From a virus (Duplodnaviria; Heunggongvirae; Uroviricota; Caudoviricetes), in the IMG/VR virus record IMGVR_UViG_3300030444_000103, positions 1 through 22,048 of that record: a stretch of 22,048 nucleotides of DNA; one strand, written 5' to 3'. The position numbers were made by a program, and so were the translations under genes. Of the stretch, positions 1,554-19,844 are shown piece by piece; the first letter of the stretch is position 1, and every line of letters begins with the position of its first letter. The notes below the pieces were generated by a model. That model was not told where the DNA came from, ran no database searches, and worked only from the letters and a program-made list of their open reading frames with translations.

Positions 1554-1781
1554 ATGCTTAAAGTTGACGCAATTACTTTTTTTGGCAGCAAAACAAAGCT
1601 TGCCAATGCCGCAGGAGTGAGGCTGGCAAGTGTTGCTGCTTGGGGGATACTGGTTCCTGAAGGTCGCGCGATGCGTCTACAGGAGGCATCTGGCGGGGAG
1701 CTTCAGTATGATCCCAAAGTTTATGATGAATATCGTAAGACGAAGCGGGCGGGGCGGTTGAACAATGAAAATCACTCCTGA
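1554..1781 (+). CDS. dicC: Cro-like small HTH regulator, DicC / YdaS family
   Basis: Track ORF 1551..1781; ATG at 1554 after GAGGGGGA; divergent from the repressor; start could instead be TTG at 1551. Confidence 0.6.
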   Translation: MLKVDAITFFGSKTKLANAAGVRLASVAAWGILVPEGRAMRLQEASGGELQYDPKVYDEYRKTKRAGRLNNENHS

Positions 1782-2286
1782 ACAGGCTCGTGAGGCTCTG
1801 GATGCCTGGATATGTCGACCAGGAATGACACAGGAGCAGGCGACGATATTAATCACTGAAGCATTCTGGGCTTTGAAAGAGCGCCCGAACATCGATGTTC
1901 AGCGTGTCACAGATGAAGGTGGCGCGGTTGATCAGCGAGCGCTTGGTGTTAATCGAGTGAAGATATTCGAACGCTGGAAGGCTATCGACACCAGGGATAA
2001 GCGTGAAAAGTTCACGGCGCTAGTGCCTGCGATTATGGAGGCTATCCGGATTAGTGATTTCAGGTTGTATCGTGAAATTACTGACGGAAAAAGCATCACG
2101 TGCATGATCGCCGGGTTAAACAAAGAATATGGCGATGTGGTGGAGTCCGGACTGCTTTTTGCTGATCCTGCCGTAGTGGATCGTGAAACTGACGAACTTA
2201 TAGAAAAAGCAATTGCTTTCAAGCTTGCGTATCGACAGCAATACCAACAAAAAGCTGGATGGAATTATGAGCCTTCTTTTTGCTGA
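1765..2286 (+). CDS. YdaT-like prophage protein in the cII position
   Basis: 173-aa ORF overlapping the end of the cro-like gene; family assignment is from weak recalled resemblance only. Confidence 0.5.
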   Translation: MKITPEQAREALDAWICRPGMTQEQATILITEAFWALKERPNIDVQRVTDEGGAVDQRALGVNRVKIFERWKAIDTRDKREKFTALVPAIMEAIRISDFRLYREITDGKSITCMIAGLNKEYGDVVESGLLFADPAVVDRETDELIEKAIAFKLAYRQQYQQKAGWNYEPSFC

Positions 2287-3232
2287 ACGCCCACTGGTTA
2301 TAAACACGCAGCTGGCAATGAAAATTGGCTTAAACGAAGCCATTGTTTTGCAACAACTGCACTACTGGTTGAGAGATACCAACTCCGGCATGGAATGTGA
2401 TGGTGTTCGCTGGATTTATAACACAACGGAACAATGGCTGGAACAGTTCCCATTCTGGTCAGAGTCAACGTTAAAGCGCGCGTTTGCAAGTCTGAAAACG
2501 CTGGGGCTTTTGCGTTGTGAAAAGCTCAATAAATCAAAGCGCGATATGACCAATTTCTACATGATCAACTATGGGAGCGAGCTTTTAGATGGTGGCAAAT
2601 TGAGCGAATCCATCGGTTCAAAATGCGCCGCTCCATCAGGTCAAAATGACACGATGGAAGAGGTCAAAATGAAACGCTCCATTGATTCAAAACGACCCAA
2701 TGTCATCGGGTCAAAATGGCCTGATGATCTTACAGAGAATACAACAGAGATTACTACAGAGAATAAAAACACTTTTCGTCCGGAAGCTTCGCAACCGGAC
2801 CCGCAGACGACTGAACAGGATTTTTTAACCCGGAACTCCGACGCGGTTGTGTTTAGTGCGAAAAAACGCCAGTGGGGTAGCAGGGAGGATTTGGCGTGTG
2901 CGCAGTGGATCTGGGGGCGGATCGTGGGTCTCTACGAACAGGCAGCCAGTGATGATGGCGAGATCATGCGACCAAAAGAGCCTAACTGGACTGCCTGGGC
3001 CAATGACGTGCGCACAATGCGGATGCTGGATGGCAGAAGCCACAGACAAATTTGCGAAATGTTTGGTCGGGTTCAGCGAGATCCATTCTGGGTAAAAAAC
3101 ATCATGAGCCCGTCAAAGCTCCGCGAAAAATGGGACGAACTGGTCATCCGCCTGGGACGTTCACCTGTACAGCGTTGTGTTAATCATATTTCTGAACCGG
3201 ATACAGAAATTCCGCCTGGTTTCAGAGGATAA
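2267..3232 (+). CDS. Phage replication initiator (O-like replisome organiser)
   Basis: Track ORF 2213..3232 with likely ATG at 2267 after GGATGG; N-terminus MSLLFAERPLVINTQLAMKIGLNEAIVLQQLHYWL is typical of replisome-organiser N-domains; iteron-like repeats lie inside the gene. Confidence 0.65.
   Translation: MSLLFAERPLVINTQLAMKIGLNEAIVLQQLHYWLRDTNSGMECDGVRWIYNTTEQWLEQFPFWSESTLKRAFASLKTLGLLRCEKLNKSKRDMTNFYMINYGSELLDGGKLSESIGSKCAAPSGQNDTMEEVKMKRSIDSKRPNVIGSKWPDDLTENTTEITTENKNTFRPEASQPDPQTTEQDFLTRNSDAVVFSAKKRQWGSREDLACAQWIWGRIVGLYEQAASDDGEIMRPKEPNWTAWANDVRTMRMLDGRSHRQICEMFGRVQRDPFWVKNIMSPSKLREKWDELVIRLGRSPVQRCVNHISEPDTEIPPGFRG
2610..2720 (+). repeat. Iteron-like direct repeats (putative ori) inside the replication gene
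   Basis: Five copies of CCATCrGkTCAAAATG-like motifs at about 2610, 2633, 2660, 2681 and 2703, spaced about 22-24 bp. Confidence 0.5.
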
Positions 3233-3272
3233 GTGTTGATTTCAGGTCATGAGGTAATTTTAAGGGGGACTT

Positions 3273-3695
3273 GTGGCAAAAGTTTTTACACAAGAAGAGC
3301 GGGAAAAAATTAAATGGCAGGTGGTGGAACTCGTGCGCCAGAGCGGCCGTGAGACGTTACGGCAACTGGAAGCTAAAACAGGTGCGACTAGATATCTGAT
3401 GAGCGTTCTTGCCAGAGAGCTGGTAGCCAGTGGCGATGTATACAACTCCGGCTACGGGTTATTCCCCTCTGAACAGGCGCGTAAGGACTGGCAAAACGCC
3501 CGCAAAAAACTCTCGAGGGCAAAGGTGAAGAAACCTGCTGTGGTTGATCCGGACCTTATCTGGTCATCACCTGACGGAGAAATACGTCGCTACGACAGTC
3601 GCCTAAACATAATCTGTCGCGAGTGCCGGAAGAGCGAAGTTATGCAGCGCATACTGGCTTTCTATCAGGGTAATTTTCAGGACGTGGCGCAGTGA
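3273..3695 (+). CDS. Hypothetical prophage protein (140 aa), GTG start
   Basis: ORF with AAGGGGGA upstream of a GTG start; its stop overlaps the start of the next gene; no family recognised. Confidence 0.5.
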   Translation: MAKVFTQEEREKIKWQVVELVRQSGRETLRQLEAKTGATRYLMSVLARELVASGDVYNSGYGLFPSEQARKDWQNARKKLSRAKVKKPAVVDPDLIWSSPDGEIRRYDSRLNIICRECRKSEVMQRILAFYQGNFQDVAQ

Positions 3696-4137
3696 GTGCA
3701 CCGGCAACCATTCTTGATATGTGCTGTGGCAGCCGCATGTTCTGGTTCGATAAGTCTGACGAACGGGCGATATTTAGCGATATCAGAAAAGAAGGATACA
3801 CATTACGCAATGGGAGACGCTTGATTATCAGCCCTGACATTATCGCAGATTTTCGTGCATTATCATTTGCAGACGCATCTTTTTCGATGGTTGTATTAGA
3901 CCCTCCGCATCTTGAGCGTGTTGGTGATAACGCCTGGATGGGAAAGAAATATGGACGGCTGAATAAAGATGCCTGGCGTGATGATTTGCGACAGAGATTT
4001 AAAGAAGCTTTTCGGGTGTTGAGGCCGCACGGCGTTCTGATTTTTTAATGGAATGAAACGCAAATACCGGTAAGCCAGATTCTGGCACTGACAGATAGAA
4101 AGCCTGTTATCTGTCAACGAACAGGGAAAAAACGATA
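3692..4137 (+). pseudogene. DNA methyltransferase (DPPY/DPPH-motif type), frameshifted at a T6 run
   Basis: 118-aa ORF containing VVLDPPH ends at TAA within TTTTTT (4041-4046); the next frame continues open (WNETQIPVSQILALTDRKPVICQRTGKKR) to about 4137; no SAM-binding motif follows, so the gene is truncated. Confidence 0.5.
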
Positions 4138-4310
4138 AAACCCACTGGATTATTTTTATGAAAGAGGCATCCAGTGAGTAGATTCGTAAGGTTACAGATA
4201 CGTATATCTGAATAATTAAATTCAGTTCTGTAAATAAAACTTAATCCTTAACCGGATGGATTTCTGCACCCTCAGAACATCAGGAGGCCGCCCGAAAGGG
4301 CGGTAGTGAA

Positions 4311-4493
4311 ATGCGAAAGTTCAAAATTATTATTGAAACGGGAATAGCTGGTGGAGATTTTGAGGATGTATTCGAAGTGGACGATGACGCAACACCTGAT
4401 GAAATTCATGACGGAGCATAAGAAATTTTCTTTAACTACTGCAATTACTCATACCACGAAATAAAAGACGATGAGGAAGAACAAAGTGGCTGA
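4311..4493 (+). pseudogene. Short ORF with an in-frame TAA at 4419-4421
   Basis: Hand translation: MRKFKIIIETGIAGGDFEDVFEVDDDATPDEIHDGA, stop, then EIFFNYCNYSYHEIKDDEEEQSG. Confidence 0.3.
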
Positions 4494-4662
4494 TTTTTGT
4501 TCAGCTAAATATAACATCAGTTTTGAAGAGCGGGATGAACTATTAATGGACTATGGTGAGTTACGCGGTGGAAGTGCTGCTGATGTCGAATCCTAGCGTG
4601 ATGACTATGAAGCGGGAAAAACTCCGGTCGAAGCATATTGTGATGAGTGGGGCGATGAATGA
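4471..4662 (+). pseudogene. Short ORF with an in-frame TAG at 4594-4596
   Basis: Hand translation: MRKNKVADFCSAKYNISFEERDELLMDYGELRGGSAADVES, stop, then RDDYEAGKTPVEAYCDEWGDE; its TGA overlaps the next ATG (ATGA). Confidence 0.3.
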
Positions 4663-4946
4663 GCGAGATTAATTATCAGGAAGGGCATGAAACGGCGGGG
4701 CAAGCAAAACCAGTGACATGGCGATATCGCTACGTGAAAAAAGGCGTTACGGACTTTCAGGGGAAGTAGTGGTCTGGTGACTGGAAATATGTACCGAAAA
4801 AAGAGGATTGTAACGACAGGCCGAACTATCAAATTCAGGCCTTATTCACTGCCTCACCAGTCCCGGTTACATCAGAAGAATTGGTTAAAGCTGTGCACTT
4901 TTATGAACAACTAAAACGCGAAAATCCACCAACATCCGGCAACTAG
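4659..4946 (+). pseudogene. Short ORF with an in-frame TAG at 4767-4769
   Basis: Hand translation: MSEINYQEGHETAGQAKPVTWRYRYVKKGVTDFQGK, stop, then a 58-codon open stretch WSGDWKYVPKKEDCNDRPNYQIQALFTASPVPVTSEELVKAVHFYEQLKRENPPTSGN. Confidence 0.3.
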
Positions 4947-5200
4947 ATTAATGGGTTAACTATGTCGGTTAAACGACCAGCCAACTGAAAAAGCGGAAAC
5001 CTGATTACAGGTTGCCAGATAAGGCAATGAGCTACCTGGCGCGGAACGGACTGATAAGTATGGGGAATGTTTTACGATGAACCTTTAGACTAAAGAGTTT
5101 GTAACGCTATGTAAGTGATTTTTTCTGGTTTAGATATTTATATGTCCGGCCAAATTGAGGTGTGTTTAAATGTAATTGCACATTGATTGTAGGAGGAATA

Positions 5201-5380
5201 ATGAAAAACGCATTGCAGTTTTTGTTTGTTGCGTTCTGGTTGTTCGCATCATGTATGCCCATCATCTTCACAGCAAGGTATATGGAAAAAGTTGATGTTT
5301 TGATATTAATATTTGGATATATAAATGCCCTTTTTTTAGGGGTGTTCATGGCGGTCATGTGCATTGAATACTGGCGGTAA
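5201..5380 (+). CDS. Small hydrophobic (two-helix) membrane protein, 59 aa
   Basis: Strong SD AGGAGG 5 nt before ATG 5201 (inside track ORF 5162..5380); MKNALQFLFVAFWLFASCMPIIFTARYMEKVDVLILIFGYINALFLGVFMAVMCIEYWR; sits in an AT-rich island. Confidence 0.45.
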   Translation: MKNALQFLFVAFWLFASCMPIIFTARYMEKVDVLILIFGYINALFLGVFMAVMCIEYWR

Positions 5381-5559
5381 ATACAGCGAATTCCATTGGT
5401 TTAGTTGGATATTTACTGTGCTGGACAAAAACGGTTTGCGGGGAAATCTTAGTTAAGTAGAATGACTGCGGGTGCTTGAGGCTATCTGCCTCGGGCACGA
5501 ACACCAACGGCAGGTAGAGAAAAGCCCCAGTTAACATTACGCGTCCTGCAAGACGCTTA

Positions 5560-5640
5560 ACATTAATCTGAGGCCAATTTCATGCCAGACACATGTAGGT
5601 TAGCCTCTTACGTGCCGAAAGGCAAGGAGAAGCAGGCTAT
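5560..5640 (+). pseudogene. hok/gef-family 5' region remnant, cut at the start codon
   Basis: GCCTCTTACGTGCCGAAAGGCAAGGAGAAGCAGGCTAT matches the recalled hokC-type leader and SD and resembles the intact hokD start at 8941-8958; the coding sequence is absent after the start-codon position. Confidence 0.4.
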
Positions 5641-7127
5641 TGTTAACACCAAGCTGTAATGTCCCCTTTGAACCATTCTAAAATGTCCCCAGACAATTCT
5701 CTGGGGGATTTTTCATGACCAAAGAAACTGTTACGATGAGTCATAAGGAACTCCACCGACTTCAGATTATTCAGGAGTCAATTAATCGACATATTACTCA
5801 GGAACAAGCTGCGGCACGCATTGGCATTTCTATTCGGCAGGTTAAACGTCTGGTGCAACGGTATAGAAATGAAGGGCCTTCTGGTCTGGTTTCCCACCGA
5901 CGTGGAAAGCGTCCTAATAATTCCTTTTCTACTGAATTCAGAGCAACAGTAATTTTACTCCTCAAAGGCCGTTACGCTGATTTTGGACCTACGTTTGCGT
6001 GCGAAAAATTGCGCGAGATACACGGTTTATCTTTATCCGTTGAAACTCTCAGAAAGTGGATGATAGAAGAGGGGGGTATGGCGTGAACGCCGTCGTAAAA
6101 TTGCCCGTATATATCAACGCCGCATGCGACGACCATCTTACGGTGAACTGATCCAGATTGATGGCTCACCTCATGACTGGTTTGAAAATCGAGGCCCCAG
6201 ATGTACACTGATCGTTTTCATTGATGATGCCACCAGTGCGTTGATGGCGTTGCGTTTTGTGCCTGCTGAAACAACCCGGGCTTACATGGAAACCCTCCGG
6301 GGTTACCTTAATGATCATGGCGTACCGCTCGCTCTCTACTCTGATAGACACAGTATATTCAGGGTAAATAACCCAGAGCGGGAAGGTGAGCTGACCCAGT
6401 TCACTCGTGCGATAAAGACACTGGGCATCGAGCCAATCCATGCCAACAGCCCGCAGGCAAAAGGGCGGGTAGAGCGCGCCAATCAGACACTACAGGACAG
6501 GCTGGTCAAAGAAATGCGGCTTCAGAATATCAGTGATATTGAAACAGCAAATGCATGGTTGCCGACCTTTATTGAAGCCTATAACAACCGGTTCGCTACG
6601 TCGCCTCGTACTACTGATAATGCTCATCTTGATGTGCACCATTCTGAAGAGGAACTGGGTTATATCTTCAGCCTACAGGCGAAGCGCGTTCTGTCTAAAA
6701 ATCTCACTTTCCAGTACAAAAGCAGTGCGTTTCAGGTACGCAGTGAGGGCCGGGGATATCGACTTAGGCATTCGGTTGTTACTGTATGCGAGAACTTTGA
6801 CGGTGAAATTAACGTTCTGTATGACGGGAAAGCGCTGGGCTGGGAAAAGTATGTTGATGGCCCGGAGCCTATACCACTGGATGATGAAAAGAGTGTCCAT
6901 GAACGAGTGGATAATGCCCGTATTGATTTACGCTCAAAATACTATGTTAAACCTAAAGCTGACCATCCCTGGCTTACGCGCCGAACGCAAAGTCATCAGC
7001 AAGTTAAGCCCCCGAAGTTACCTAAAAAGAAGCCTGATCCCGATAAAAAAGATTGAAACCAAGATCGATTCGGTTGAGTGCATATCCATTCATAGGGTAG
7101 ATTCTTAAGTCGCGTTTCTGGTGTTCA
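5641..7127 (+). mobile_element. Insertion sequence with a DDE (rve) transposase, IS481/ISNCY-like; boundaries approximate
   Basis: Begins where hok homology ends; candidate imperfect terminal inverted repeats TGTTAACACCA (left) and TGAACACCA (right, reverse complement); no clear target-site duplication. Confidence 0.4.
5715..7056 (+). pseudogene. DDE transposase split into two ORFs by a frameshift in a G6 run (6071-6076)
   Basis: ORF 5715..6086 carries the N-terminal HTH; ORF 6124..7056 carries the integrase core; the alternative frame across the G run reads ...EEGVWRERRRKIARIYQRRMRRPSYGELIQ..., joining them. Confidence 0.7.
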
Positions 7128-7492
7128 TTTTCGGGTGGTTTGTTACTTGTTTTACCGGGGATATGCCAGAAACGCGCTGAGTCAGTCTGGGCGGTGCGCG
7201 TAATGAGGCGTTATGGTAAATAGCCTATGCTAATGTCCGCTAAGAGCAAGAAGCGGAAGTTGGCAGTTTTGTGGACTGTCCCCACAAAAGTGACTACAGA
7301 AATAGTTGCAATTCATAATTGATCATGGGTTGTCAGTTAAACTCGTGGCGATTTAAATAGACTAATTGGGAGTGCGTCCATTACTTATATCTTGTAATGT
7401 TAACTATCAGAAATGATACAAAGATAATATGTCTTTAAAGAAAAGGCTGATGGCGAAAAGTGGCCCGATGAGGGCCACAATACGGCTGTCAC

Positions 7493-7825
7493 TTAGACGT
7501 AAATATCAATGGTGCCAGCGGTATTTGTATCGTCTTTTTTCTCTTCTTTTTTATCAGGCTGAACTGTCGCGTCTTTATTCTTTTTCTCTGCCTGCTGCCT
7601 TAACAACTGCTCCAGTTGAGCCCTGAGGCTTTCAATTTGCTTCTGTACCAATGCAGCCATTTCTTTTTTCTGCTGTGTCGTCATCCCCTCTTCCGATGAG
7701 ATTTTCCCAAGCTTTTCAGTCAGCACCTGAATTTGTCTTGTGATTTTGGCTATTTCTGATGTTCCTTCCGGGGCGGAGTTGTTTGAAATAACGGTTGAGG
7801 TATTTCCCTGAATTGTGACAGACAT
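7493..7825 (-). CDS. flxA: FlxA-like protein (110 aa)
   Basis: 110-aa coiled-coil-like ORF matching the recalled size and context of Qin flxA; preceded by a sigma-28 promoter match. Confidence 0.65.
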   Translation of the reverse strand: MSVTIQGNTSTVISNNSAPEGTSEIAKITRQIQVLTEKLGKISSEEGMTTQQKKEMAALVQKQIESLRAQLEQLLRQQAEKKNKDATVQPDKKEEKKDDTNTAGTIDIYV

Positions 7826-7848
7826 AGATTTCTCCTTTTAAAAAAGCA

Positions 7849-7875
7849 CTATCGGCATGCACAAAAAAATCTTTA
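7849..7875 (-). promoter_or_regulatory. Sigma-28 (FliA) promoter for flxA
   Basis: Minus strand reads TAAAGATT-N11-GCCGATAG against consensus TAAAGTTT-N11-GCCGATAA, about 25 nt upstream of the start codon. Confidence 0.6.
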
Positions 7876-8320
7876 ATCGTATTTCTTGTGTCATTAATTG
7901 TTTGATGTTCAGATTGTTTTCCTCGCGGGCTGGCGCGCCTCAGAAAGTAAAGCTTGTTGACAGGGGTAAACGTTCGGCAATAATTTTCTGCCGCATGCGG
8001 GTGTTGCATAAAACGTGCTACGTTCCTTTATCGACAGGTCAGGTCACCGCTCACCCGCCGACGAGAAAGCAACACTGACATGCTAAAGCAAAAAATAGAT
8101 GAATAAGTTGAGTTGTGCATATGTAGCCTGACCGTCACAAAGTATATGGTGTCTGTACCAGTAAGATGATGGCCGGACTCTTTAAAAACGAGCTGACCTG
8201 CACAATACAGGATGGACTTAGCAATGGCTGCTCCTGGCACAAAGCGGACAGTGATCACCGTTCTTACGACTACTTTCTGACTTCCTTCGTGACTTGCCCT
8301 AAGCATGTTGTAGTGCGATA

Positions 8321-8346
8321 CTTGTAATGACATTTGTAATTACAAG
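8321..8346 (+). promoter_or_regulatory. relBE operator-like palindrome (relO)
   Basis: CTTGTAATGACATTTGTAATTACAAG just upstream of relB; matches the known pattern of TTGTAAT/ATTACAA repeats. Confidence 0.5.
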
Positions 8347-8357
8347 AGGTGTAAGAC

Positions 8358-8597
8358 ATGGGTAGCATTAACCTGCGTATTGACGATGAACTTAAAGCGC
8401 GTTCTTACGCCGCGCTTGAAAAAATGGGTGTAACTCCTTCTGAAGCGCTTCGTCTCATGCTCGAGTATATCGCTGACAATGAACGCTTGCCGTTCAAACA
8501 GACACTCCTGAGTGATGAAGATGCTGAACTTGTGGAGATAGTGAAAGAACGGCTTCGTAATCCTAAGCCAGTACGTGTGACGCTGGATGAACTCTGA
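8358..8597 (+). CDS. relB: RelB antitoxin
   Basis: 79 aa, MGSINLRIDDELKARSYAALEKMGVTPSEALRLMLEYIADNERLPF...; stop overlaps the relE ATG (TGATG). Confidence 0.85.
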   Translation: MGSINLRIDDELKARSYAALEKMGVTPSEALRLMLEYIADNERLPFKQTLLSDEDAELVEIVKERLRNPKPVRVTLDEL

Positions 8598-8884
8598 TGG
8601 CGTATTTTCTGGATTTTGACGAGCGGGCACTAAAGGAATGGCGAAAGCTGGGCTCGACGGTACGTGAACAGTTGAAAAAGAAGCTGGTTGAAGTACTTGA
8701 GTCACCCCGGATTGAAGCAAACAAGCTCCGTGGTATGCCTGATTGTTACAAGATTAAGCTCCGGTCTTCAGGCTATCGCCTTGTATACCAGGTTATAGAC
8801 GAGAAAGTTGTCGTTTTCGTGATTTCTGTTGGGAAAAGAGAACGCTCGGAAGTATATAGCGAGGCGGTCAAACGCATTCTCTGA
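8597..8884 (+). CDS. relE: RelE mRNA-interferase toxin
   Basis: 95 aa, MAYFLDFDERALKEWRKLGSTVREQLKKKLVEVLESPRIEANKLRGMPDCYKIKLRSSGYRLVYQVIDEKVVVFVISVGKRERSEVY... Confidence 0.85.
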   Translation: MAYFLDFDERALKEWRKLGSTVREQLKKKLVEVLESPRIEANKLRGMPDCYKIKLRSSGYRLVYQVIDEKVVVFVISVGKRERSEVYSEAVKRIL

Positions 8885-8955
8885 ACCAAAGCATGACATC
8901 TCTGTTTCGCACCGAAGGTGACACTTCTGCTTTGCGTTGACAGGAGAAGCAGGCT

Positions 8956-9111
8956 ATGAAGCAGCAAAAGGCGATGTTAATCGCCCTGATCGTCATCTGT
9001 TTAACCGTCATAGTGACGGCACTGGTAACGAGGAAAGACCTCTGCGAGGTACGAATCCGAACCGGCCAGACGGAGGTCGCTGTCTTCACAGCTTACGAAC
9101 CTGAGGAGTAA
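8956..9111 (+). CDS. hokD: HokD (RelF) type I toxin, 51 aa
   Basis: Hand translation: MKQQKAMLIALIVICLTVIVTALVTRKDLCEVRIRTGQTEVAVFTAYEPEE; below the ORF-track cutoff. Confidence 0.85.
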   Translation: MKQQKAMLIALIVICLTVIVTALVTRKDLCEVRIRTGQTEVAVFTAYEPEE

Positions 9112-9178
9112 GAGACCCGGCGGGGGAGAAATCCCTCGCCACCTCTGATGTGGCAGGCATCCTCAACGCACCCGCACT

Positions 9179-9207
9179 TAACCCGCTTCGGCGGGTTTTT
9201 GTTTTTA
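9179..9207 (+). terminator. Rho-independent terminator after hokD
   Basis: ACCCGCTTCGGCGGGT hairpin followed by a T-run. Confidence 0.6.
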
Positions 9208-9327
9208 TTTTCAACGCGTTTGAAGTTCTGGACGGTGCCGGAATAGAATCAAAAATACTTAAGTAGCGCGCAGGGATAAGAGGGATGGTCCCTTAAAGGG
9301 GAGAGCTAATTATCCGGAAGGATTCTG

Positions 9328-9579
9328 ATGATGAACATCGAAGAACTGCGTAAAATTTTTTGTGAAGATGGCCTCTATGCTGTGTGCGTTGAAAATGGAA
9401 ATCTTGTTAGTCATTACCGCATTATGTGTTTGCGAAAGAATGGGGCTGCGTTAATTAATTTTGTGGATGCTCGGGTCACGGACGGATTTATCTTGCGCGA
9501 AGGTGAGTTTGTCACTTCATTACAGGCATTGAAAGAGATCGGAATAAAAGCTGGCTTTTCTGCTTTTTCAGGAGAATAA
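9328..9579 (+). CDS. Rem-like small prophage protein (83 aa)
   Basis: ORF with GGAAGGA SD; size and position after hokD match Qin rem; the rem sequence itself is not recalled. Confidence 0.5.
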   Translation: MMNIEELRKIFCEDGLYAVCVENGNLVSHYRIMCLRKNGAALINFVDARVTDGFILREGEFVTSLQALKEIGIKAGFSAFSGE

Positions 9580-9645
9580 ACTCATCTACAATCTTGCGCG
9601 GGGCTGAACTCCCGCTGAGTAACACCGTGCCACCGGAGAAAACCG

Positions 9646-9924
9646 ATGGCACGCAACGCAAAATATTACAATTCTGATAATTCGCCCGTTCTTGCCTGCA
9701 CGCACGGGCGGTATTCTCACGCATTCAAGTCTGAATGGTTCCAGCACCCTCCATGCACTGCAGAACAGGCCGAATGGCTGATTCATTCTTACCGCAGGCG
9801 CGGGTTCGAGGTTAAGAAAGCTCTCAGTCTCGACTATCGGCACTGGATAATCTCTGTCAGGCTGCCTTATTCCGAACGCCCACCACGTGCGTCCCGCACT
9901 TTCCAGCAACGGATCTGGAGGTAA
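9646..9924 (+). CDS. Hypothetical protein (92 aa), translationally coupled to the next gene
   Basis: GGAGAAAACCG before the ATG; TAA at 9922-9924 is followed 1 nt later by the GTG start of the downstream gene. Confidence 0.4.
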   Translation: MARNAKYYNSDNSPVLACTHGRYSHAFKSEWFQHPPCTAEQAEWLIHSYRRRGFEVKKALSLDYRHWIISVRLPYSERPPRASRTFQQRIWR

Positions 9925-9925
9925 C

Positions 9926-10975
9926 GTGCGGGTATTACTTAGACCTGTTCTGGTGCCTGAGCTTGGGCTGGTGGTCCTTAAGCCGGGCCGTGAATCCATA
10001 CAGATATTTCATAATCCTCGAGTGCTGGTGGAACCGGAACCAAAAAGCATGCGTAATCTGCCATCCGGAGTCGTTCCTGCCGTTCGCCAGCCGCTGGCGG
10101 AAGACAAAACATTGCTGCCGTTTTTTAGTAACGAACGGGTGATTCGTGCTGCTGGCGGCGTTGGCGCATTGTCCGACTGGCTATTACGTCATGTTACATC
10201 CTGCCAGTGGCCTAATGGCGATTACCATCACACTGAAACAGTCATTCACCGTTATGGTACCGGCGCAATGGTGTTGTGCTGGCACTGCGACAACCAACTG
10301 CGTGACCAGACATCGGAATCACTGGAGCTGCTTGCTCAACAAAATCTGACAGCATGGGTGATTGACGTCATCCGTCACGCAATAAGCGGTACGCAGGAGC
10401 GGGAATTATCTTTGGCTGAATTATCCTGGTGGGCGGTCTGCAATCAGGTGGTGGATGCACTACCTGAGGCTGTATCGCGTCGTTCGCTGGGATTACCAGC
10501 GGAAAAAATCTGCTCGGTGTACCGCGAAAGCGACATCGTACCGGGAGAGCAGACCGCCACCAGCATATTGAAACAACGCACAAAAAATCTTGCACCGTTG
10601 CCTTACGCCCACCAGCAACAAAAATCACCACAGGAAAAGACGGTGGTAAGCATCACCGTTGATCCAGAGTCTCCGGAATCTTTCATGAAGCTGCCTAAAC
10701 GTCGCCGCTGGGTTAAGGAGAAATACACACGTTGGGTTAAGACACAGCCGTGTGCTTGCTGCGGTATGCCAGCCGACGATCCGCATCATCTGATTGGTCA
10801 CGGGCAGGGCGGAATGGGAACAAAAGCACATGATCTCTTTGTGTTGCCTTTGTGCAGAAAGCATCACAACGAGCTGCATACGGATACAGTGGCATTTGAA
10901 GATAAGTATGGCTCCCAACTGGAGCTGATATTTCGTTTTATCGATCGCGCGCTGGCAATTGGCGTACTGGCGTAA
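9926..10975 (+). CDS. YdfU-like DUF968 protein with a C-terminal Cys/His (HNH-like) motif, 349 aa
   Basis: Track ORF 9887..10975; GTG at 9926 after GGAGGT; C-terminus ...QPCACCGMPADDPHHLIGHGQGGMGTKAHDLFVLPLCRKHHNELH... Confidence 0.6.
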   Translation: MRVLLRPVLVPELGLVVLKPGRESIQIFHNPRVLVEPEPKSMRNLPSGVVPAVRQPLAEDKTLLPFFSNERVIRAAGGVGALSDWLLRHVTSCQWPNGDYHHTETVIHRYGTGAMVLCWHCDNQLRDQTSESLELLAQQNLTAWVIDVIRHAISGTQERELSLAELSWWAVCNQVVDALPEAVSRRSLGLPAEKICSVYRESDIVPGEQTATSILKQRTKNLAPLPYAHQQQKSPQEKTVVSITVDPESPESFMKLPKRRRWVKEKYTRWVKTQPCACCGMPADDPHHLIGHGQGGMGTKAHDLFVLPLCRKHHNELHTDTVAFEDKYGSQLELIFRFIDRALAIGVLA

Positions 10976-10988
10976 GTGGAGAACGAGC

Positions 10989-11741
10989 ATGAACCTTGAA
11001 GCCTTACCAAAATATTACTCCCCAAAATCTCCAAAATTGAGCGATGACGCTCCAGCGACAGGCACCGGTTGTTTAACAATTACGGATGTAATGGCAGCGC
11101 AGGGGATGGTGCAGTCGAAAGCACCACTTGGGTTGGCCTTATTTCTGGCAAAAGTTGGTGTTCAGGACCCTCAGTTTGCGATTGAAGGCCTGCTAAATTA
11201 CGCGATGGCACTGGATAACCCGACATTGAACAAATTGAGTGAAGAAATCCGGTTACAGATTATTCCTTACCTCGTGAGTTTTGCCTTTGCTGATTACTCC
11301 AGGTCTGCGGCAAGTAAGGCTCGCTGTGAGCATTGTTCAGGTACGGGATTTTATAATGTATTGCGCGAAGTGGTGAAACACTACAGACGCGGGGAATCTG
11401 TAATCAAGGAAGAATGGGTGAAGGAACTATGTCAGCATTGCCATGGTAAGGGCGAAGCCAGCACAGCGTGCAGAGGGTGTAAGGGTAAAGGGATTGTTCT
11501 GGATGAAAAAAGAACCCGGTTTCATGGCGTACCGGTATATAAGATTTGTGGGCGTTGTAATGGAAACCGGTTTAGTCGTTTACCGACCACGCTGGCACGA
11601 CGTCATGTCCAGAAGCTGGTACCAGACCTGACCGATTATCAGTGGTATAAGGGGTATGCGGACGTCATTGGTAAACTGGTAACAAAGTGCTGGCAGGAAG
11701 AAGCATACGCGGAAGCGCAATTGAGGAAGGTGACGAGATAA
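10989..11741 (+). CDS. Late-gene antiterminator Q (phage 82 / QuuQ-like), 250 aa
   Basis: Track ORF 10959..11741 with ATG 10989 after GGAG; several CxxC pairs; size and sequence match the recalled Qin QuuQ. Confidence 0.8.
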   Translation: MNLEALPKYYSPKSPKLSDDAPATGTGCLTITDVMAAQGMVQSKAPLGLALFLAKVGVQDPQFAIEGLLNYAMALDNPTLNKLSEEIRLQIIPYLVSFAFADYSRSAASKARCEHCSGTGFYNVLREVVKHYRRGESVIKEEWVKELCQHCHGKGEASTACRGCKGKGIVLDEKRTRFHGVPVYKICGRCNGNRFSRLPTTLARRHVQKLVPDLTDYQWYKGYADVIGKLVTKCWQEEAYAEAQLRKVTR

Positions 11742-12375: not shown

Positions 12376-12675
12376 AAAAATTCCTTAATACTGATAACTT
12401 GGCGCACTATACACACGTTCCTGAAGAAAGCTATAGTTTTTTGATGGGGTTGAAGATGGCTGGATGTCTAAAATAAACATTGCTTCATATGTTCAACTAT
12501 GCGTTAATGATTGCGTCGGTTTGAAGAACAGACGATATACGAAGTAGTTTACTAAAGCAGTTCTCATTTCAGGTGTTATTCACTTATTCCTTCTTTGAGT
12601 CTCTCCAATTAAGTACGAAGTCGTTTCTGTTATGCAAACCATTTATGCCGAAAGGCTCAAGTTAAGGAATGTAGA

Positions 12676-12891
12676 ATGTCAAATAAAATGACTGGTTTAG
12701 TAAAATGGTTTAACGCTGATAAAGGTTTCGGCTTTATTTCTCCTGTTGATGGTAGTAAAGATGTGTTTGTGCATTTTTCTGCGATTCAGAATGATAATTA
12801 TCGAACCTTATTTGAAGGTCAAAAGGTTACCTTCTCTATAGAGAGTGGTGCTAAAGGTCCTGCAGCAGCAAATGTCATCATTACTGATTAA
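12676..12891 (+). CDS. cspB: Cold-shock protein, CspB-like
   Basis: 71 aa, [38 protein letters not shown]...; divergent from the cspF-like gene. Confidence 0.85.
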
Positions 12892-13173
12892 AATTCATCG
12901 CTCGTCTGTATACGATAACGAAGAAGGCTGATGCCTGAGTAGAGATACGGACAGAGTAGTGAATATTGGATCTCTTTAATAAAAAGTAAGGAGGTCCAAT
13001 ACATGAAACAATGGCTAGCATATTTGGCAAAATCTTAATCAGGAAAAGTATGCTAACCATTGTGGTGAAGTGCAGGTTTGCTGCATGAATAGTTTTACAG
13101 CAGAAGCTAACTGCTGGCATGGCAAAACAAAGTGCGTAAGTGGATGACTCCCACAAAAAGCACCACAATCTCA

Positions 13174-15200: not shown

Positions 15201-15563
15201 GGTAATATTAAATCGGAACATTTACATCGCGGAATGTAAAATTTAAATAAAAAGGACTCTTCCATGAGCCAAAATTCCTGAAATCTTAAGGGTAAGATAA
15301 AAGGTCTTAATCAGAATGACACGTTATTATTAATAAATAAAGCTATTCTTTCATTGCTGTGTTTTTCTTTACAAAAGTAATCCTTGCTATGGGTGGTTAA
15401 TCATGCGTTAATGGTGTTCTGGTTTGTTACAAATTTATCTGAAGCAGTCATTGTTATAATTTTATTATTTGTACCTCTTGAGATTTCCTTGTTGGTTTTT
15501 CTCTCTGATATTTTTTTTCGGACCATTCTGCCCAAGGGCTAATTTCTTCAAAAGGTAATAATT

Positions 15564-15776
15564 ATGTCTAACAAAATGACTGGTTTAGTGAAATGGTTTA
15601 ACCCTGAAAAAGGTTTTGGTTTCATCACGCCGAAAGATGGCAGCAAAGATGTGTTTGTCCATTTCTCAGCAATTCAGAGCAACGATTTCAAAACATTAAC
15701 TGAGAATCAGGAAGTTGAATTTGGTATTGAGAACGGACCTAAAGGTCCTGCCGCTGTTCATGTAGTGGCGCTTTGA
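15564..15776 (+). CDS. cspI: Cold-shock protein, CspI-like
   Basis: 70 aa, [45 protein letters not shown]...; long AT-rich 5' leader. Confidence 0.8.
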
Positions 15777-15981
15777 GGTAGACAATATTACAAACCATAT
15801 TCACTTTAGATGCCCGTGTTGTCATGGTTCCCAGTATAGAACATCATCTTTTGATGTTTCTGACATGAATCCTTTCGGGGCAAAATGTATCTTTTGTAAA
15901 TCAATGATGATTACATTTGATAATATTTCACAATACTTAAATGCCAGCCGTCTGTCGTTGGATTTAAAAAAGTGAAAATGA

Positions 15982-19769: not shown

Positions 19770-19844
19770 TGGTGTCCCCTGCAGGAATCGAACCTGCAAT
19801 TAGCCCTTAGGAGGGGCTCGTTATATCCATTTAACTAAGAGGAC
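19770..19844 (-). tRNA. argW: tRNA-Arg (anticodon CCU)
   Basis: Reverse complement GTCCTCTTAGTTAAATGGATATAACGAGCCCCTCCTAAGGGCTAATTGCAGGTTCGATTCCTGCAGGGGACACCA folds as a cloverleaf with anticodon CCT and an encoded CCA. Confidence 0.9.

What the first reader, a model, noticed from the sequence alone, without database searches (positions are those of the whole stretch)
5560..7127. hok-family locus cut at its start codon by an IS whose transposase is frameshifted in a G6 run
The hok leader and SD (GGCAAGGAGAAGCAGGCTAT) are preserved up to the start-codon position, then replaced by an IS481/ISNCY-like element, and no hok coding remnant is found beyond the IS. IS-inactivated hok genes are known in K-12. 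The transposase is split at GGGGGG (6071-6076); a homopolymer slip could restore or abolish activity.
Basis: partly seen in the sequence, partly recalled or inferred. Interest (0 to 1): 0.4.

Follow-up and report, generated by a model that had tools for sequence, protein, structure and literature searches.

The report
hok-targeting transposon that carries relBE
A toxin gene (hok) is not destroyed by a small insertion sequence: it is split from its control region by a 3.3-kb transposon carrying a second toxin-antitoxin pair (relBE), and this insertion created the well-known relBE-hokD gene cluster of E. coli.

Summary
The finding is half right. A hok/sok leader (Rfam RF01794, 5470-5641) stops inside the hok ATG at 5640. 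It is followed by an IS1202-family (ISNCY, 'ISEsa1-family') transposase gene split by one extra G in a G run (6071-6076). Intact relatives have G5 or G4TT and one 446-447-aa ORF; 50 of 789 E. coli records share the G6 allele.

The element does not end at 7127, and the hok gene is not lost. The inserted unit is 3,302 bp (5641-8942): IRL, transposase gene, a cer-type XerCD site (7079-7221), flxA, ydfV, relB, relE and IRR (8919-8942). It is flanked by a 15-bp target duplication, GGAGAAGCAGGCTAT (5626-5640 and 8943-8957). The intact hok coding sequence, hokD (8956-9111), starts in the right-hand copy.

Strains without the element have leader and hokD contiguous. The same element sits at the SD-ATG of other hok genes (IncI pndA, an IncHI2 hok) with different matching 15-bp duplications, and both empty sites exist at 100% identity. 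Of 48 distinct left flanks, 34 are hok-type.

K-12's relBE-hokD cluster is a truncated remnant of this insertion. The frameshift itself is an ordinary, clonally inherited inactivating mutation.

The parts
5470..5640 (+). Orphaned hok/sok leader (promoter-proximal hok mRNA leader with the sok antisense region), ending inside the hok ATG
   Evidence: Rfam RF01794 matches 5470-5641 at 99.8 bits, model positions 1-157 of 157. It is contiguous with hokD in ATCC 11303 and Iso00041.
5626..5640 (.). Left copy of the 15-bp target-site duplication GGAGAAGCAGGCTAT (hok SD through the AT of the ATG)
   Evidence: Identical 15-mer at 8943-8957; a single copy in the empty sites.
5641..8942 (+). Whole inserted transposon (3,302 bp), an IS1202-family transporter IS
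   Evidence: Bounded by IRL and IRR and by the TSD. Removing it together with one TSD copy recreates the empty site without gaps. The same unit lies in IncI plasmids with a different TSD.
5641..5664 (+). IRL, TGTTAACACCAAGCTGTAATGTCC, with a second AATGTCCCC repeat at about 5682-5690
   Evidence: All homologous copies begin exactly here in many different contexts.
5715..7056 (+). Transposase pseudogene: ORF1 5715-6086 (HTH part) and ORF2 in the +1 frame to 7056 (DDE part). The last 49 codons (6907-7056) are annotated 'ydfW'
   Evidence: The repaired protein of 446 aa matches NF033594 ISNCY_2 at 1e-138, and Pfam HTH_28/HTH_32 plus rve_3. Annotation.
6071..6076 (+). G6 run holding the +1G frameshift
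   Evidence: The window has G6. IncI plasmid copies have G5, and most chromosomal copies have G4TT; both are intact. The G6 allele is in 50 of 789 E. coli records and 3 metagenome contigs.
7079..7221 (+). cer-type XerCD site: ARG-box-like TGCATATCCATTCAT (7079-7093), accessory region, and core GGTGCGCGTAA-TGAGGCG-TTATGGTAAAT (7193-7221)
   Evidence: Aligns with ColE1 cer, including the ARG box and both Xer arms. The core is identical in the IS-less plasmid pDAM_2. Core located.
7493..7825 (-). flxA (cargo)
   Evidence: RefSeq annotation of the identical IAI1 sequence; ORF.
8028..8333 (-). ydfV (cargo); its 5' part from 8230 belongs to the conserved right module
   Evidence: Module boundary at 8230.
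8358..8884 (+). relB (8358-8597) and relE (8597-8884), a type II toxin-antitoxin pair: the constant cargo next to IRR
   Evidence: The 8230-8942 block is 98.8-100% identical in every complete copy examined and lies on 784 plasmids.
8919..8942 (+). IRR, TGACACTTCTGCTTTGCGTTGACA (reverse complement TGTCAACGCAAAGCAGAAGTGTCA)
   Evidence: 17 of 24 match to IRL, TGT termini, and a subterminal (A/G)TGTC(C/A) repeat as in IRL. It has the same terminal sequence as the IRRs about 100 nt after the transposase stop in compact relatives.
8943..8957 (.). Right copy of the 15-bp target-site duplication; it supplies the SD and the AT of the hokD ATG
8956..9111 (+). hokD: the intact Hok toxin coding sequence (51 aa) that belongs to the leader at 5470-5640
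   Evidence: Translation MKQQKAML...YEPEE. Annotated HokD WP_000813254.1. Contiguous with the leader in the empty-site strains.

Best explanation
A 3,302-bp IS1202-family transposon (5641-8942) inserted into the hok/sok locus of a Qin-type lambdoid prophage. Its order is IRL, transposase gene, cer-type XerCD site, flxA, ydfV, relB, relE, IRR.

Shown:
- The staggered cut duplicated 15 bp running from the hok Shine-Dalgarno sequence to the AT of the ATG. The left copy stays with the hok/sok leader, which now reads into IRL and the transposase gene.
- The right copy gives the displaced hok coding sequence (hokD) back its SD and start codon, directly downstream of relBE.
- hokD is therefore intact but cut off from its own promoter, mok and the Sok target.
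- In the IAI1 lineage one extra G in a G5 run then broke the transposase gene.
- K-12 has lost the leader, IRL and the first 1.2 kb through a 4.8-kb deletion.

Inferred:
- The frameshift leaves this copy non-autonomous, although its ends are intact.
- hokD is now part of the relBE transcription unit.
- The element prefers this site. It is found again and again, in one orientation, at the SD-ATG of different hok-family genes.
- The probable determinant is the conserved GGCAA that lies 15-16 bp upstream of the insertion point in hok leaders.
For: Ends and duplication:
- IRL and IRR match at 17 of 24 positions, both begin TGT, and both carry subterminal ATGTC repeats.
- IRR has the same terminal sequence (..TTTGCGTTGACA) as the IRRs about 100 nt after the transposase gene in compact relatives from Rhabdochlamydiaceae, Castellaniella and Chromatiales. 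One of these has a 15-bp duplication of its own.
- Identical 15-mers lie at 5626-5640 and 8943-8957.

Empty sites:
- E. coli ATCC 11303 and Iso00041 have leader and hokD contiguous with a single 15-mer. The window minus 5641-8957 aligns to them without gaps across the junction: 98.9% over 634 nt and 96.5% over 692 nt.

Independent insertions with matching but different duplications:
- IncI plasmids: 3,301 bp, TGGAGGGGCTATGAT, in pndA.
- IncHI2 pR47-309: 6,093 bp, GGAGAAGAAGGCCAT.
- Klebsiella pA_F11: 4,661 bp, GGAGAAAAAGGCTAT.
- The reconstructed IncI and IncHI2 empty sites exist at 100% identity and coverage in other plasmids.

Target preference:
- 34 of 48 distinct left flanks carry GGAG 14-17 nt before IRL.
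- 30 of 48 carry GCA[AT] 15-16 nt before IRL, including 5 of the 14 non-hok flanks (chance about 1.6% per flank).
- The Rfam hok/sok model ends at IRL in 10 of 19 other loci with diverged leaders.

Other points:
- Left and right modules have the same genus distribution on 831 and 784 plasmids.
- Frameshift.
- K-12 deletion of window 2045-6871, with IRR, duplication and hokD retained.
- Published family traits agree: a single 400-500-aa ORF, TGT termini, a conserved block near position 20, and 15-17-bp duplications in the ISTde1 subgroup.
Against: - No experiment shows movement. Everything rests on comparative sequence.
- The IR match is moderate (17 of 24), though typical for the family (15/22 to 25/25 in Harmer & Hall).
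- ISfinder could not be consulted. Its ISEsa1 entry is 1,609 bp with 'no TSD', which on its face conflicts with a 3.3-kb unit.
- Fourteen of 48 left flanks are not hok-type.
- Several 'distinct' flanks differ only by point changes, so the number of independent events is smaller than 34.
- In some copies (ncr nickel-resistance cargo) no IRR was found within 7 kb.
- Co-transcription of hokD with relBE in this strain is inferred, not shown here.
Confidence: 0.88

Rival explanations
1. One reading: a simple IS of about 1.49 kb (5641-7127) replaced the hok coding region, and hok is lost.
For: A weak inverted match lies near 7112-7127 (TGAACACCAGAAACG against TGTTAACACCAAGCTG). No Hok-like frame follows 7127 directly.
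Against: Positions 7075-7221 are a cer-type site shared with IS-less ColE1-type plasmids and ColE1 itself, and this includes the supposed repeat. No duplication is present at 7127. The genuine IRR and a 15-bp duplication are at 8919-8957, followed by an intact hokD. Empty sites join the leader directly to hokD.
Confidence: 0.02
2. The leader and hokD were separated by a non-transpositional rearrangement, such as prophage recombination or integration of a plasmid segment through hok homology. The association with hok in other replicons would then reflect shared descent and homologous recombination, not target choice.
For: One metagenome copy has non-matching flanks (left GGAGAAGCAGGCTAT, right GGAGTTGTATGGGTCC), so recombination between copies does occur. 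Left and right modules are mosaic, 91% against 99% identity.
Against: Three or more loci have perfect 15-bp duplications that differ from each other and equal the local native hok sequence, and the empty sites are 100% identical. The ends are family-typical inverted repeats. Five non-hok insertions share the GCAA-N15-16 spacing.
Confidence: 0.06
3. The G6 run is functional (programmed +1 frameshifting or a phase-variable switch) or is a sequencing error, rather than a fixed inactivating mutation.
For: It is a homopolymer, and loss of a single G restores the frame.
Against: - Relatives at 30-99% identity encode one continuous ORF, and the family is described as single-ORF.
- Most E. coli copies have G4TT at this spot, so there is no conserved slippery site.
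- The G6 allele recurs at 100% identity in 50 independent assemblies and 3 metagenome contigs, so it is neither an error nor visibly switching.
Confidence: 0.04

Closest known systems
IS1202 family (formerly ISNCY/IS1202 group), ISTde1-type subgroup, including the ISfinder entry ISEsa1
   Same: - HTH plus DDE transposase in one ORF of about 446 aa (NF033594); RefSeq names it 'IS1202-like element ISEsa1 family transposase'.
- Imperfect 24-bp inverted repeats starting TGT, with a conserved block near position 20, and 15-17-bp target duplications.
   Different: - ISEsa1 is catalogued as 1,609 bp, 439-aa transposase, TIR 15/22, no TSD detected (Harmer & Hall 2023).
- Here the unit is 3.3-6.1 kb, has clear 15-bp duplications, and carries cargo.
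- The figure 1,609 bp equals the distance from IRL to the end of the conserved left module (5641 + 1609 - 1 = 7249; module ends observed at 7247-7261). The catalogued right end may therefore be a module boundary. This is inference; the ISfinder sequence was not seen.
Transporter IS (tIS) of the same family, e.g. ISKpn21, ISKpn65, ISRel10
   Same: Passenger DNA sits between the transposase gene and IRR.
   Different: Those carry one hypothetical ORF and belong to the 5-bp-duplication subgroup. This element carries a toxin-antitoxin pair, a cer-type site and variable further cargo: flxA-ydfV, a CDF transporter, ncr nickel resistance.
ISAjo2/ISAba32 subgroup elements that target XerCD (dif/pdif) sites
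   Same: Same IS family; strongly oriented, sequence-specific insertion; some link to Xer sites.
   Different: Those insert 5 bp from the XerC arm of an external site, with IRL facing it. Here the Xer site is inside the element, 137 bp past the transposase stop, and the target is the hok SD-ATG, not a Xer site.
IS-inactivated chromosomal hok loci of E. coli K-12 (hokA, hokC, hokE) and the 'rearranged' hokD/relF (Pedersen & Gerdes 1999, from my own knowledge, not re-read here)
   Same: A chromosomal hok locus disabled by a mobile element. hokD lacks its upstream regulatory part and sits behind relBE in K-12.
   Different: hokA, hokC and hokE carry IS150 or IS186 downstream of hok. Here the insertion is at the start codon, by a different family. 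The IAI1-type window still holds both halves, which shows how the K-12 hokD arrangement arose.
ColE1 cer and related plasmid multimer-resolution sites
   Same: XerC arm, 7-bp centre and XerD arm, plus an ARG-box-like element about 110 bp upstream, alignable with ColE1 cer. The core is identical to that of a small ColE1-type plasmid.
   Different: It lies inside a transposon in a chromosome. The central region is 7 bp against 8 bp in cer. Activity is untested.

Membership tests
IS1202 family (ISNCY) | Single-ORF transposase of 400-500 aa with an N-terminal HTH and a DDE catalytic core | tested here: met
   The repaired protein matches NF033594 at 462.5 bits (cut-off 250), covering model positions 1-365 of 368. 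Pfam gives HTH_28/29/23/32 and rve_3. Intact 446-447-aa ORFs occur in relatives. In the window itself the ORF is broken by +1G.
IS1202 family (ISNCY) | Imperfect terminal inverted repeats of about 22-28 bp beginning 5'-TGT, with a second conserved block near position 20 | tested here: met
   IRL TGTTAACACCAAGCTGTAATGTCC against IRR (reverse complement) TGTCAACGCAAAGCAGAAGTGTCA: 17 of 24, TGT at both ends, ATGTCC/GTGTCA at positions 19-24. Published description.
IS1202 family, ISTde1-type subgroup | Target-site duplication of 15-17 bp | tested here: met
   15-bp duplications in the window and in three other loci, and a 15-bp duplication around a compact relative. Empty sites.
IS1202 family, ISTde1-type subgroup | [quoted passage not shown] | not tested
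   No alignment with reference ISTde1-group transposases was made.
IS1202 family, ISAba32/ISAjo2 subgroup | 5-6-bp duplication and insertion 5 bp from the XerC arm of a dif-like site | tested here: not met
   The duplication is 15 bp. The left flank is a hok leader, not a Xer site. The only Xer site is internal, at 7193-7221.
ISEsa1 (ISfinder entry) | At least 95% DNA identity to the 1,609-bp reference, with the same ends | not testable with these tools
   ISfinder is not available. Only the RefSeq label 'ISEsa1 family' and the published table values are known. Transposase length differs (446-447 aa against 439 aa).
[quoted passage not shown] | hok mRNA leader with the sok antisense region | tested here: met
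   RF01794 at 99.8 bits (gathering score 59), full-length match, 5470-5641.
[quoted passage not shown] | Hok/Gef toxin ORF of about 50 aa directly downstream of the leader, overlapped by mok | tested here: not met
   The toxin ORF (hokD, 8956-9111) is intact but lies 3.3 kb from its leader. It is contiguous only in the empty-site strains. The mok frame was not analysed.
cer-type XerCD multimer-resolution site | 11-bp XerC arm, 6-8-bp central region, 11-bp XerD arm | tested here: met
   GGTGCGCGTAA-TGAGGCG-TTATGGTAAAT at 7193-7221. ColE1 cer reads GGTGCGTACAA-TTAAGGGA-TTATGGTAAAT. Published dif-like arms.
cer-type XerCD multimer-resolution site | About 180 bp of accessory sequence with an ArgR box on the XerC side, and ArgR/PepA-dependent recombination | tested here: inconclusive
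   The sequence aligns with ColE1 cer through the ARG-box region and with IS-less ColE1-type plasmids. Protein binding and recombination cannot be tested here.
Programmed-frameshift transposases (IS1/IS3 type) | Two-ORF layout and a slippery site conserved among relatives | tested here: not met
   All relatives have one ORF. The site reads G4TT in most copies.

The most novel reading that the evidence does not exclude
ISEsa1-type elements may be 'stability transposons' that seek out the start codon of hok toxin genes. Each insertion disconnects Hok from Sok antisense control and places it behind relBE. The internal cer-type site may act as a Xer-dependent docking point where cargo blocks are swapped (flxA-ydfV, ncr nickel resistance, a CDF transporter). 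That would be an enterobacterial counterpart of the Acinetobacter pdif modules, but housed inside a transposon.

The hok-targeting and relBE-cargo parts are well supported. The Xer-mediated cargo exchange is only suggested, by three observations:
- Cargo changes begin within 0-40 bp of the XerD arm.
- One copy has a second Xer core 1.1 kb downstream.
- Left and right modules have discordant identity.
Probability: 0.2. Interest if true: 0.75.

Novelty: new variant of a known kind. Interest (0 to 1): 0.55.

Why it matters
- **Origin of relBE-hokD.** It gives a concrete origin for a textbook arrangement. The relB-relE-hokD cluster of E. coli K-12 is the right-hand stump of a transposon that landed in the hokD start codon. 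K-12 lost the telltale left half through a 4.8-kb deletion.
- **A catalogued IS may be too short.** ISEsa1, recorded with 'no detectable target duplication', may be a 3-6-kb cargo-carrying unit with 15-bp duplications. That would explain the missing duplication reported in 2023.
- **A new target preference in the family.** Other members are known to target Xer sites. This one targets the SD-ATG of hok-family toxin genes, probably through a GGCAA motif 15-16 bp away. The preference is testable.
- **Plasmid biology.** The element is on roughly 800 sequenced enterobacterial plasmids. It carries a toxin-antitoxin pair and a multimer-resolution-type site, and sometimes metal-resistance genes.
- **Annotation.** 'YdfW' is the last 49 codons of the transposase. 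In E. coli RefSeq records the transposase is labelled 'missing C-terminus' next to that ydfW call, whereas a plasmid record with no ydfW call annotates it full-length.

Tried and rejected
- **Right end at 7127.** Rejected after the right flank matched small IS-less plasmids from 7111 onward and aligned with cer.
- **Degenerate hok remnant after 7127.** Read in all three frames; nothing Hok-like was found. The question became moot once hokD was identified as the partner.
- **Break at 7110 in locus L019 as the IS end.** It is an IS1 insertion there (recognised from memory of the IS1 terminal sequence), so it says nothing about the end.
- **Right end at about 7250-7260, where homology among genera stops.** Rejected as the transposon end. 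No inverted repeat or duplication is there, and the family-type IRR plus duplication lie at 8919-8957.
- **First assumption that left flanks vary (trbA, DUF977, KwaB).** Wrong. All these copies have a hok-type leader in the last 30 nt or more before IRL.
- **Xer-mediated exchange of cargo.** The breakpoints are spread over 7221-7261 instead of falling in the 7-bp central region, so this stays a speculation.
- **Technical limits.** An Rfam scan of 20 loci exceeded the size limit and was rerun with 19. The genome-collection loci had only 1.5-kb flanks, so IRR could not be located in most of them. Plasmid records with 7-kb flanks were used instead.
- **Literature.** Searches for IS1202 or ISNCY together with hok found nothing relevant. 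The IS1202-family supplement holds no element with this IRL or IRR.
Full report
**Provenance and setting.** The window is 100% identical to Escherichia coli IAI1 (NC_011741.1). It lies in a Qin-type cryptic lambdoid prophage with the order dicB, dicA, dicC, ydaT-like, DUF977, [region of interest], flxA, ydfV, relB, relE, hokD, rem, ydfU, ydfT.

Rfam's hok/sok leader model RF01794 matches 5470-5641 on the + strand at 99.8 bits (gathering score 59) over its full length. The stretch is 92-98% identical to leaders that sit directly upstream of genes annotated hokD in thousands of E. coli genomes.

The leader ends ...GGCAAGGAGAAGCAGGCTAT at 5640 and is followed by TGTTAACACC....

The next gene encodes a transposase in two frames: ORF1 5715-6086, and ORF2 to 7056. 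Removing one G from the run at 6071-6076 gives a 446-aa protein. That protein matches NCBIfam NF033594 (ISNCY family transposase) at 462.5 bits against a cut-off of 250. It scores below cut-off for IS481. Pfam gives HTH and rve_3 domains.

Other copies read GAGGGGGTATGG (IncI plasmid pDEC9B-1) or GAGGGGTTATGG (most chromosomal copies). These encode one uninterrupted ORF of 447 aa, or 438 aa in an in-frame deletion allele.

A 71-nt probe across the run matches at 100% in 50 of 789 E. coli records. The other 739 carry the intact alleles. Three metagenome contigs also carry G6. The frameshift is therefore real, inherited and confined to one lineage.

The family is described as single-ORF (Siguier et al.). 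Relatives down to 30% identity are continuous. This is a plain inactivating mutation, not a programmed frameshift.

The sequence from about 7111 onward matches small ColE1-type plasmids that carry no such transposase. Aligned with those plasmids and with ColE1 itself, 7075-7221 is a cer-type site:
- an ARG-box-like TGCATATCCATTCAT at 7079-7093 (ColE1: TGCATAGGTATTCAT);
- the conserved GGGTGGTTTGTT...TTTTACC block;
- a core GGTGCGCGTAA-TGAGGCG-TTATGGTAAAT at 7193-7221 (ColE1 cer: GGTGCGTACAA-TTAAGGGA-TTATGGTAAAT; pDAM_2: identical core).

The weak inverted match that suggested an end at 7127 lies inside this site.

**The true element.** The segment just upstream of hokD reads ...TGACACTTCTGCTTTGCGTTGACA|GGAGAAGCAGGCTATGAAGCAG.
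- Its reverse complement, TGTCAACGCAAAGCAGAAGTGTCA, matches IRL, TGTTAACACCAAGCTGTAATGTCC, at 17 of 24 positions.
- Both ends begin TGT.
- Both carry an (A/G)TGTC(C/A) block at about position 19-24 and a second one about 25 nt further in. This is the architecture published for the IS1202 family and is visible in ISKpn21 ends in that paper's supplement.
- Compact relatives from Rhabdochlamydiaceae, Castellaniella and Chromatiales have the same terminal sequence (GGACATTTCTATTTTGCGTTGACA) about 100 nt after the transposase stop. One of them is flanked by a 15-bp duplication.

The 15 bp GGAGAAGCAGGCTAT occur at 5626-5640 and again at 8943-8957. The inserted unit is therefore 5641-8942, 3,302 bp. 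It holds the transposase gene, the cer-type site, flxA, ydfV, relB and relE.

**Empty sites.** In E. coli ATCC 11303 and Iso00041 the same leader runs ...GGCAAGGAGAAGCAGGCTATGAAGCAGCAA... straight into hokD, with a single copy of the 15-mer. The window with 5641-8957 removed aligns without gaps across the junction: 98.9% over 634 nt and 96.5% over 692 nt.

The 'missing' hok coding sequence is hokD (8956-9111, MKQQKAML...YEPEE). It is intact and uses the right-hand duplicate for its SD and the AT of its ATG.

**It is a transposon, and it favours hok start sites.**
- IncI plasmids (pDEC9B-1; Salmonella pSA20064858.1) carry the same 3,301-bp unit between trbA and pndA. It is flanked by TGGAGGGGCTATGAT on both sides.
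- IncHI2 pR47-309 carries a 6,093-bp version flanked by GGAGAAGAAGGCCAT.
- Klebsiella pA_F11 carries a 4,661-bp version flanked by GGAGAAAAAGGCTAT. In both, a different hok gene follows IRR.
- Sequences rebuilt by deleting the element plus one duplicate are found at 100% identity and coverage in other plasmids, ColIb-P9 among them.

Across genome, plasmid and metagenome copies (99 IRL instances) I found 48 distinct 26-nt left flanks:
- 34 have GGAG 14-17 nt before IRL.
- 30 have GCA[AT] 15-16 nt before IRL, including 5 of the 14 non-hok flanks, where chance would give about 0.2.
- Only one copy shows the opposite orientation relative to hok (L024).

RF01794 ends at IRL in 10 of 19 further loci, with bit scores from 81 to 128. 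These are diverged, independent hok leaders.

My inference is that the transposase recognises the GGCAA that precedes the SD in hok leaders and cuts 15-16 bp away. The motif loosely resembles the element's own TTGACA terminus. Multi-copy compact relatives in Hahella show a similar (T/G)CAA about 16 nt from IRL.

**Modular build.**
- The left module (IRL, transposase gene, cer-type site; 5641 to about 7250) occurs on 831 plasmids, in a roughly 99% and a roughly 91% allele.
- The right module (8230-8942: 5' part of ydfV, relB, relE, IRR) occurs on 784 plasmids with the same genus distribution. It is 98.8-100% identical in every copy compared, even where the left module is only 91%.
- The middle varies: flxA-ydfV here; ISEsa2, cytochrome b and a CDF transporter in pR47-309; and ncrYCBA nickel resistance directly after the cer-type site in Klebsiella and Enterobacter plasmids, where IRR was not found within 7 kb.
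- Homology among copies stops between 7221 and 7261, which is 0-40 bp past the XerD arm.
- One Citrobacter copy has a second Xer core 1.1 kb downstream.

This hints at Xer-linked cargo exchange. The breakpoints are not in the central region, so I leave that as a possibility only.

**Relation to K-12.** MG1655 matches window 1643-2044 and then, without a gap, 6872-11000 at 99.9%. It keeps IRR, the right duplicate and hokD.
- K-12 therefore has a 4,827-bp deletion. It removed the hok leader, IRL and the first 1.2 kb of the element.
- What remains is 'ydfX', 'ydfW', flxA, ydfV and relBE-hokD.
- 'ydfW' is the last 49 codons of the transposase, 6907-7056.

From my own knowledge, Pedersen & Gerdes (1999) described hokD as disabled by a major rearrangement. 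The IAI1-type sequence shows what that rearrangement was.

**Comparison with the literature.** Harmer & Hall 2023 (PMC10132070) list ISEsa1 as 1,609 bp, TIR 15/22, transposase 439 aa and no TSD detected. They place it apart from the short-TSD, dif-targeting ISAjo2 group.

Siguier et al. place the name ISEsa1 in their ISTde1 (15-17-bp DR) sheet without data. Their tables contain no element with this IRL or IRR.

Counting 1,609 bp from IRL ends at 7249, which is exactly where the conserved left module ends. I infer that the catalogued right end is a module boundary, which would explain the missing TSD. I could not see the ISfinder sequence, so this is unverified.

Searches of the held library found no paper linking IS1202 or ISNCY elements to hok. 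A recent survey of Hok diversity does not mention such an element. The library is incomplete, so prior description elsewhere cannot be excluded.

**Mechanism: shown and inferred.**
- Shown by sequence: the ends, the duplication, the empty sites, repeated independent insertions at hok SD-ATG, the cargo, the frameshift and the K-12 deletion.
- Inferred:
  - The transposase recognises GGCAA-N15-16.
  - The G6 copy is non-autonomous but could be mobilised in trans, because both ends are intact.
  - The orphan leader can still make Sok and now transcribes into the transposase gene.
  - hokD is expressed only as the distal gene of the relBE unit and has escaped Sok control.
  - The cer-type site is a working Xer substrate.

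**Verdict.** The frameshifted transposase is ordinary. The corrected anatomy is the interesting part: a hok-start-targeting, relBE- and cer-carrying member of the IS1202 family, and the origin of the relBE-hokD cluster. I rate it a new variant of a known kind, of moderate interest.

Noticed in passing
window 7079-7221 (core 7193-7221); hairpin 7235-7257: A complete cer-type XerCD site lies inside the transposon, directly after the transposase gene. It has an ARG-box-like element, an accessory region and the core GGTGCGCGTAA-TGAGGCG-TTATGGTAAAT. A conserved hairpin follows (ATGTCCGCTAAGAGC.AGAAGCGGA). More diverged relatives in Scandinavium carry the exact ColE1 cer arms.
   Followed up: yes
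window 6907-7056; K-12 MG1655 b1567: The annotated protein 'YdfW' is the last 49 codons of the transposase (GTG start, same frame). In E. coli RefSeq records the ORF-intact transposase copies examined are labelled 'incomplete, missing C-terminus' next to it. The same gene on a Salmonella plasmid with no ydfW call is annotated full-length (1,341 nt including stop, 446 aa).
   Followed up: partly
window 2045-6871 against NC_000913.3 (L002 5358/5359): K-12 MG1655 has a clean 4,827-bp deletion relative to this window. It joins a truncated ydaT-like gene ('ydfX') to the 3' end of the transposase gene and removes the hok leader and IRL.
   Followed up: yes
L079 and L080 (Klebsiella and Enterobacter plasmids), 8620 onward: The nickel-resistance cluster ncrY-ncrC-ncrB-ncrA begins right after the cer-type site of the element. 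No IRR was found within 7 kb, so the element may carry metal-resistance cargo or may be truncated there.
   Followed up: partly
L081 and L082 against window 5641-7251 and 8230-8942: Mosaicism: the left module is 91% identical to the window and the right module (relBE plus IRR) about 99%. This implies recombination between element variants somewhere between the cer-type site and ydfV.
   Followed up: partly
L024 (Citrobacter portucalensis) 1427 and 3006-4172; L025 (Leclercia) 1393-1440: In L024, IRL abuts the reverse complement of a hok SD-ATG (opposite orientation), and a second Xer core lies 1.1 kb after the first. In L025, an IRR is followed after only 10 nt (GAAGGCTATG) by the IRL of a 72%-diverged relative, which looks like tandem targeting of the regenerated hok start site.
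   Followed up: no
L006 (E. coli E597) and other ~1,459-bp copies among hits H40-H56; corresponds to window about 5778-5804: A common chromosomal allele has a 27-bp in-frame deletion in the HTH region of the transposase (loses 9 aa, e.g. SINRHITQE). RefSeq then labels it 'ISNCY family transposase'.
   Followed up: no
window 5162-5380 (+): A 72-aa hydrophobic small ORF (MKNALQFLFVAFWLF...) lies just upstream of the hok leader. It is not annotated in IAI1, and the sequence is also present upstream of the intact hokD locus in Iso00041.
   Followed up: no
window 12515-12907, 15418-15803 (+); 19773-19844 (-): Rfam finds two cspA-type thermoregulator leaders (the first covers the annotated cspB gene; the gene behind the second was not checked) and one tRNA gene further along the prophage.
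   Followed up: no
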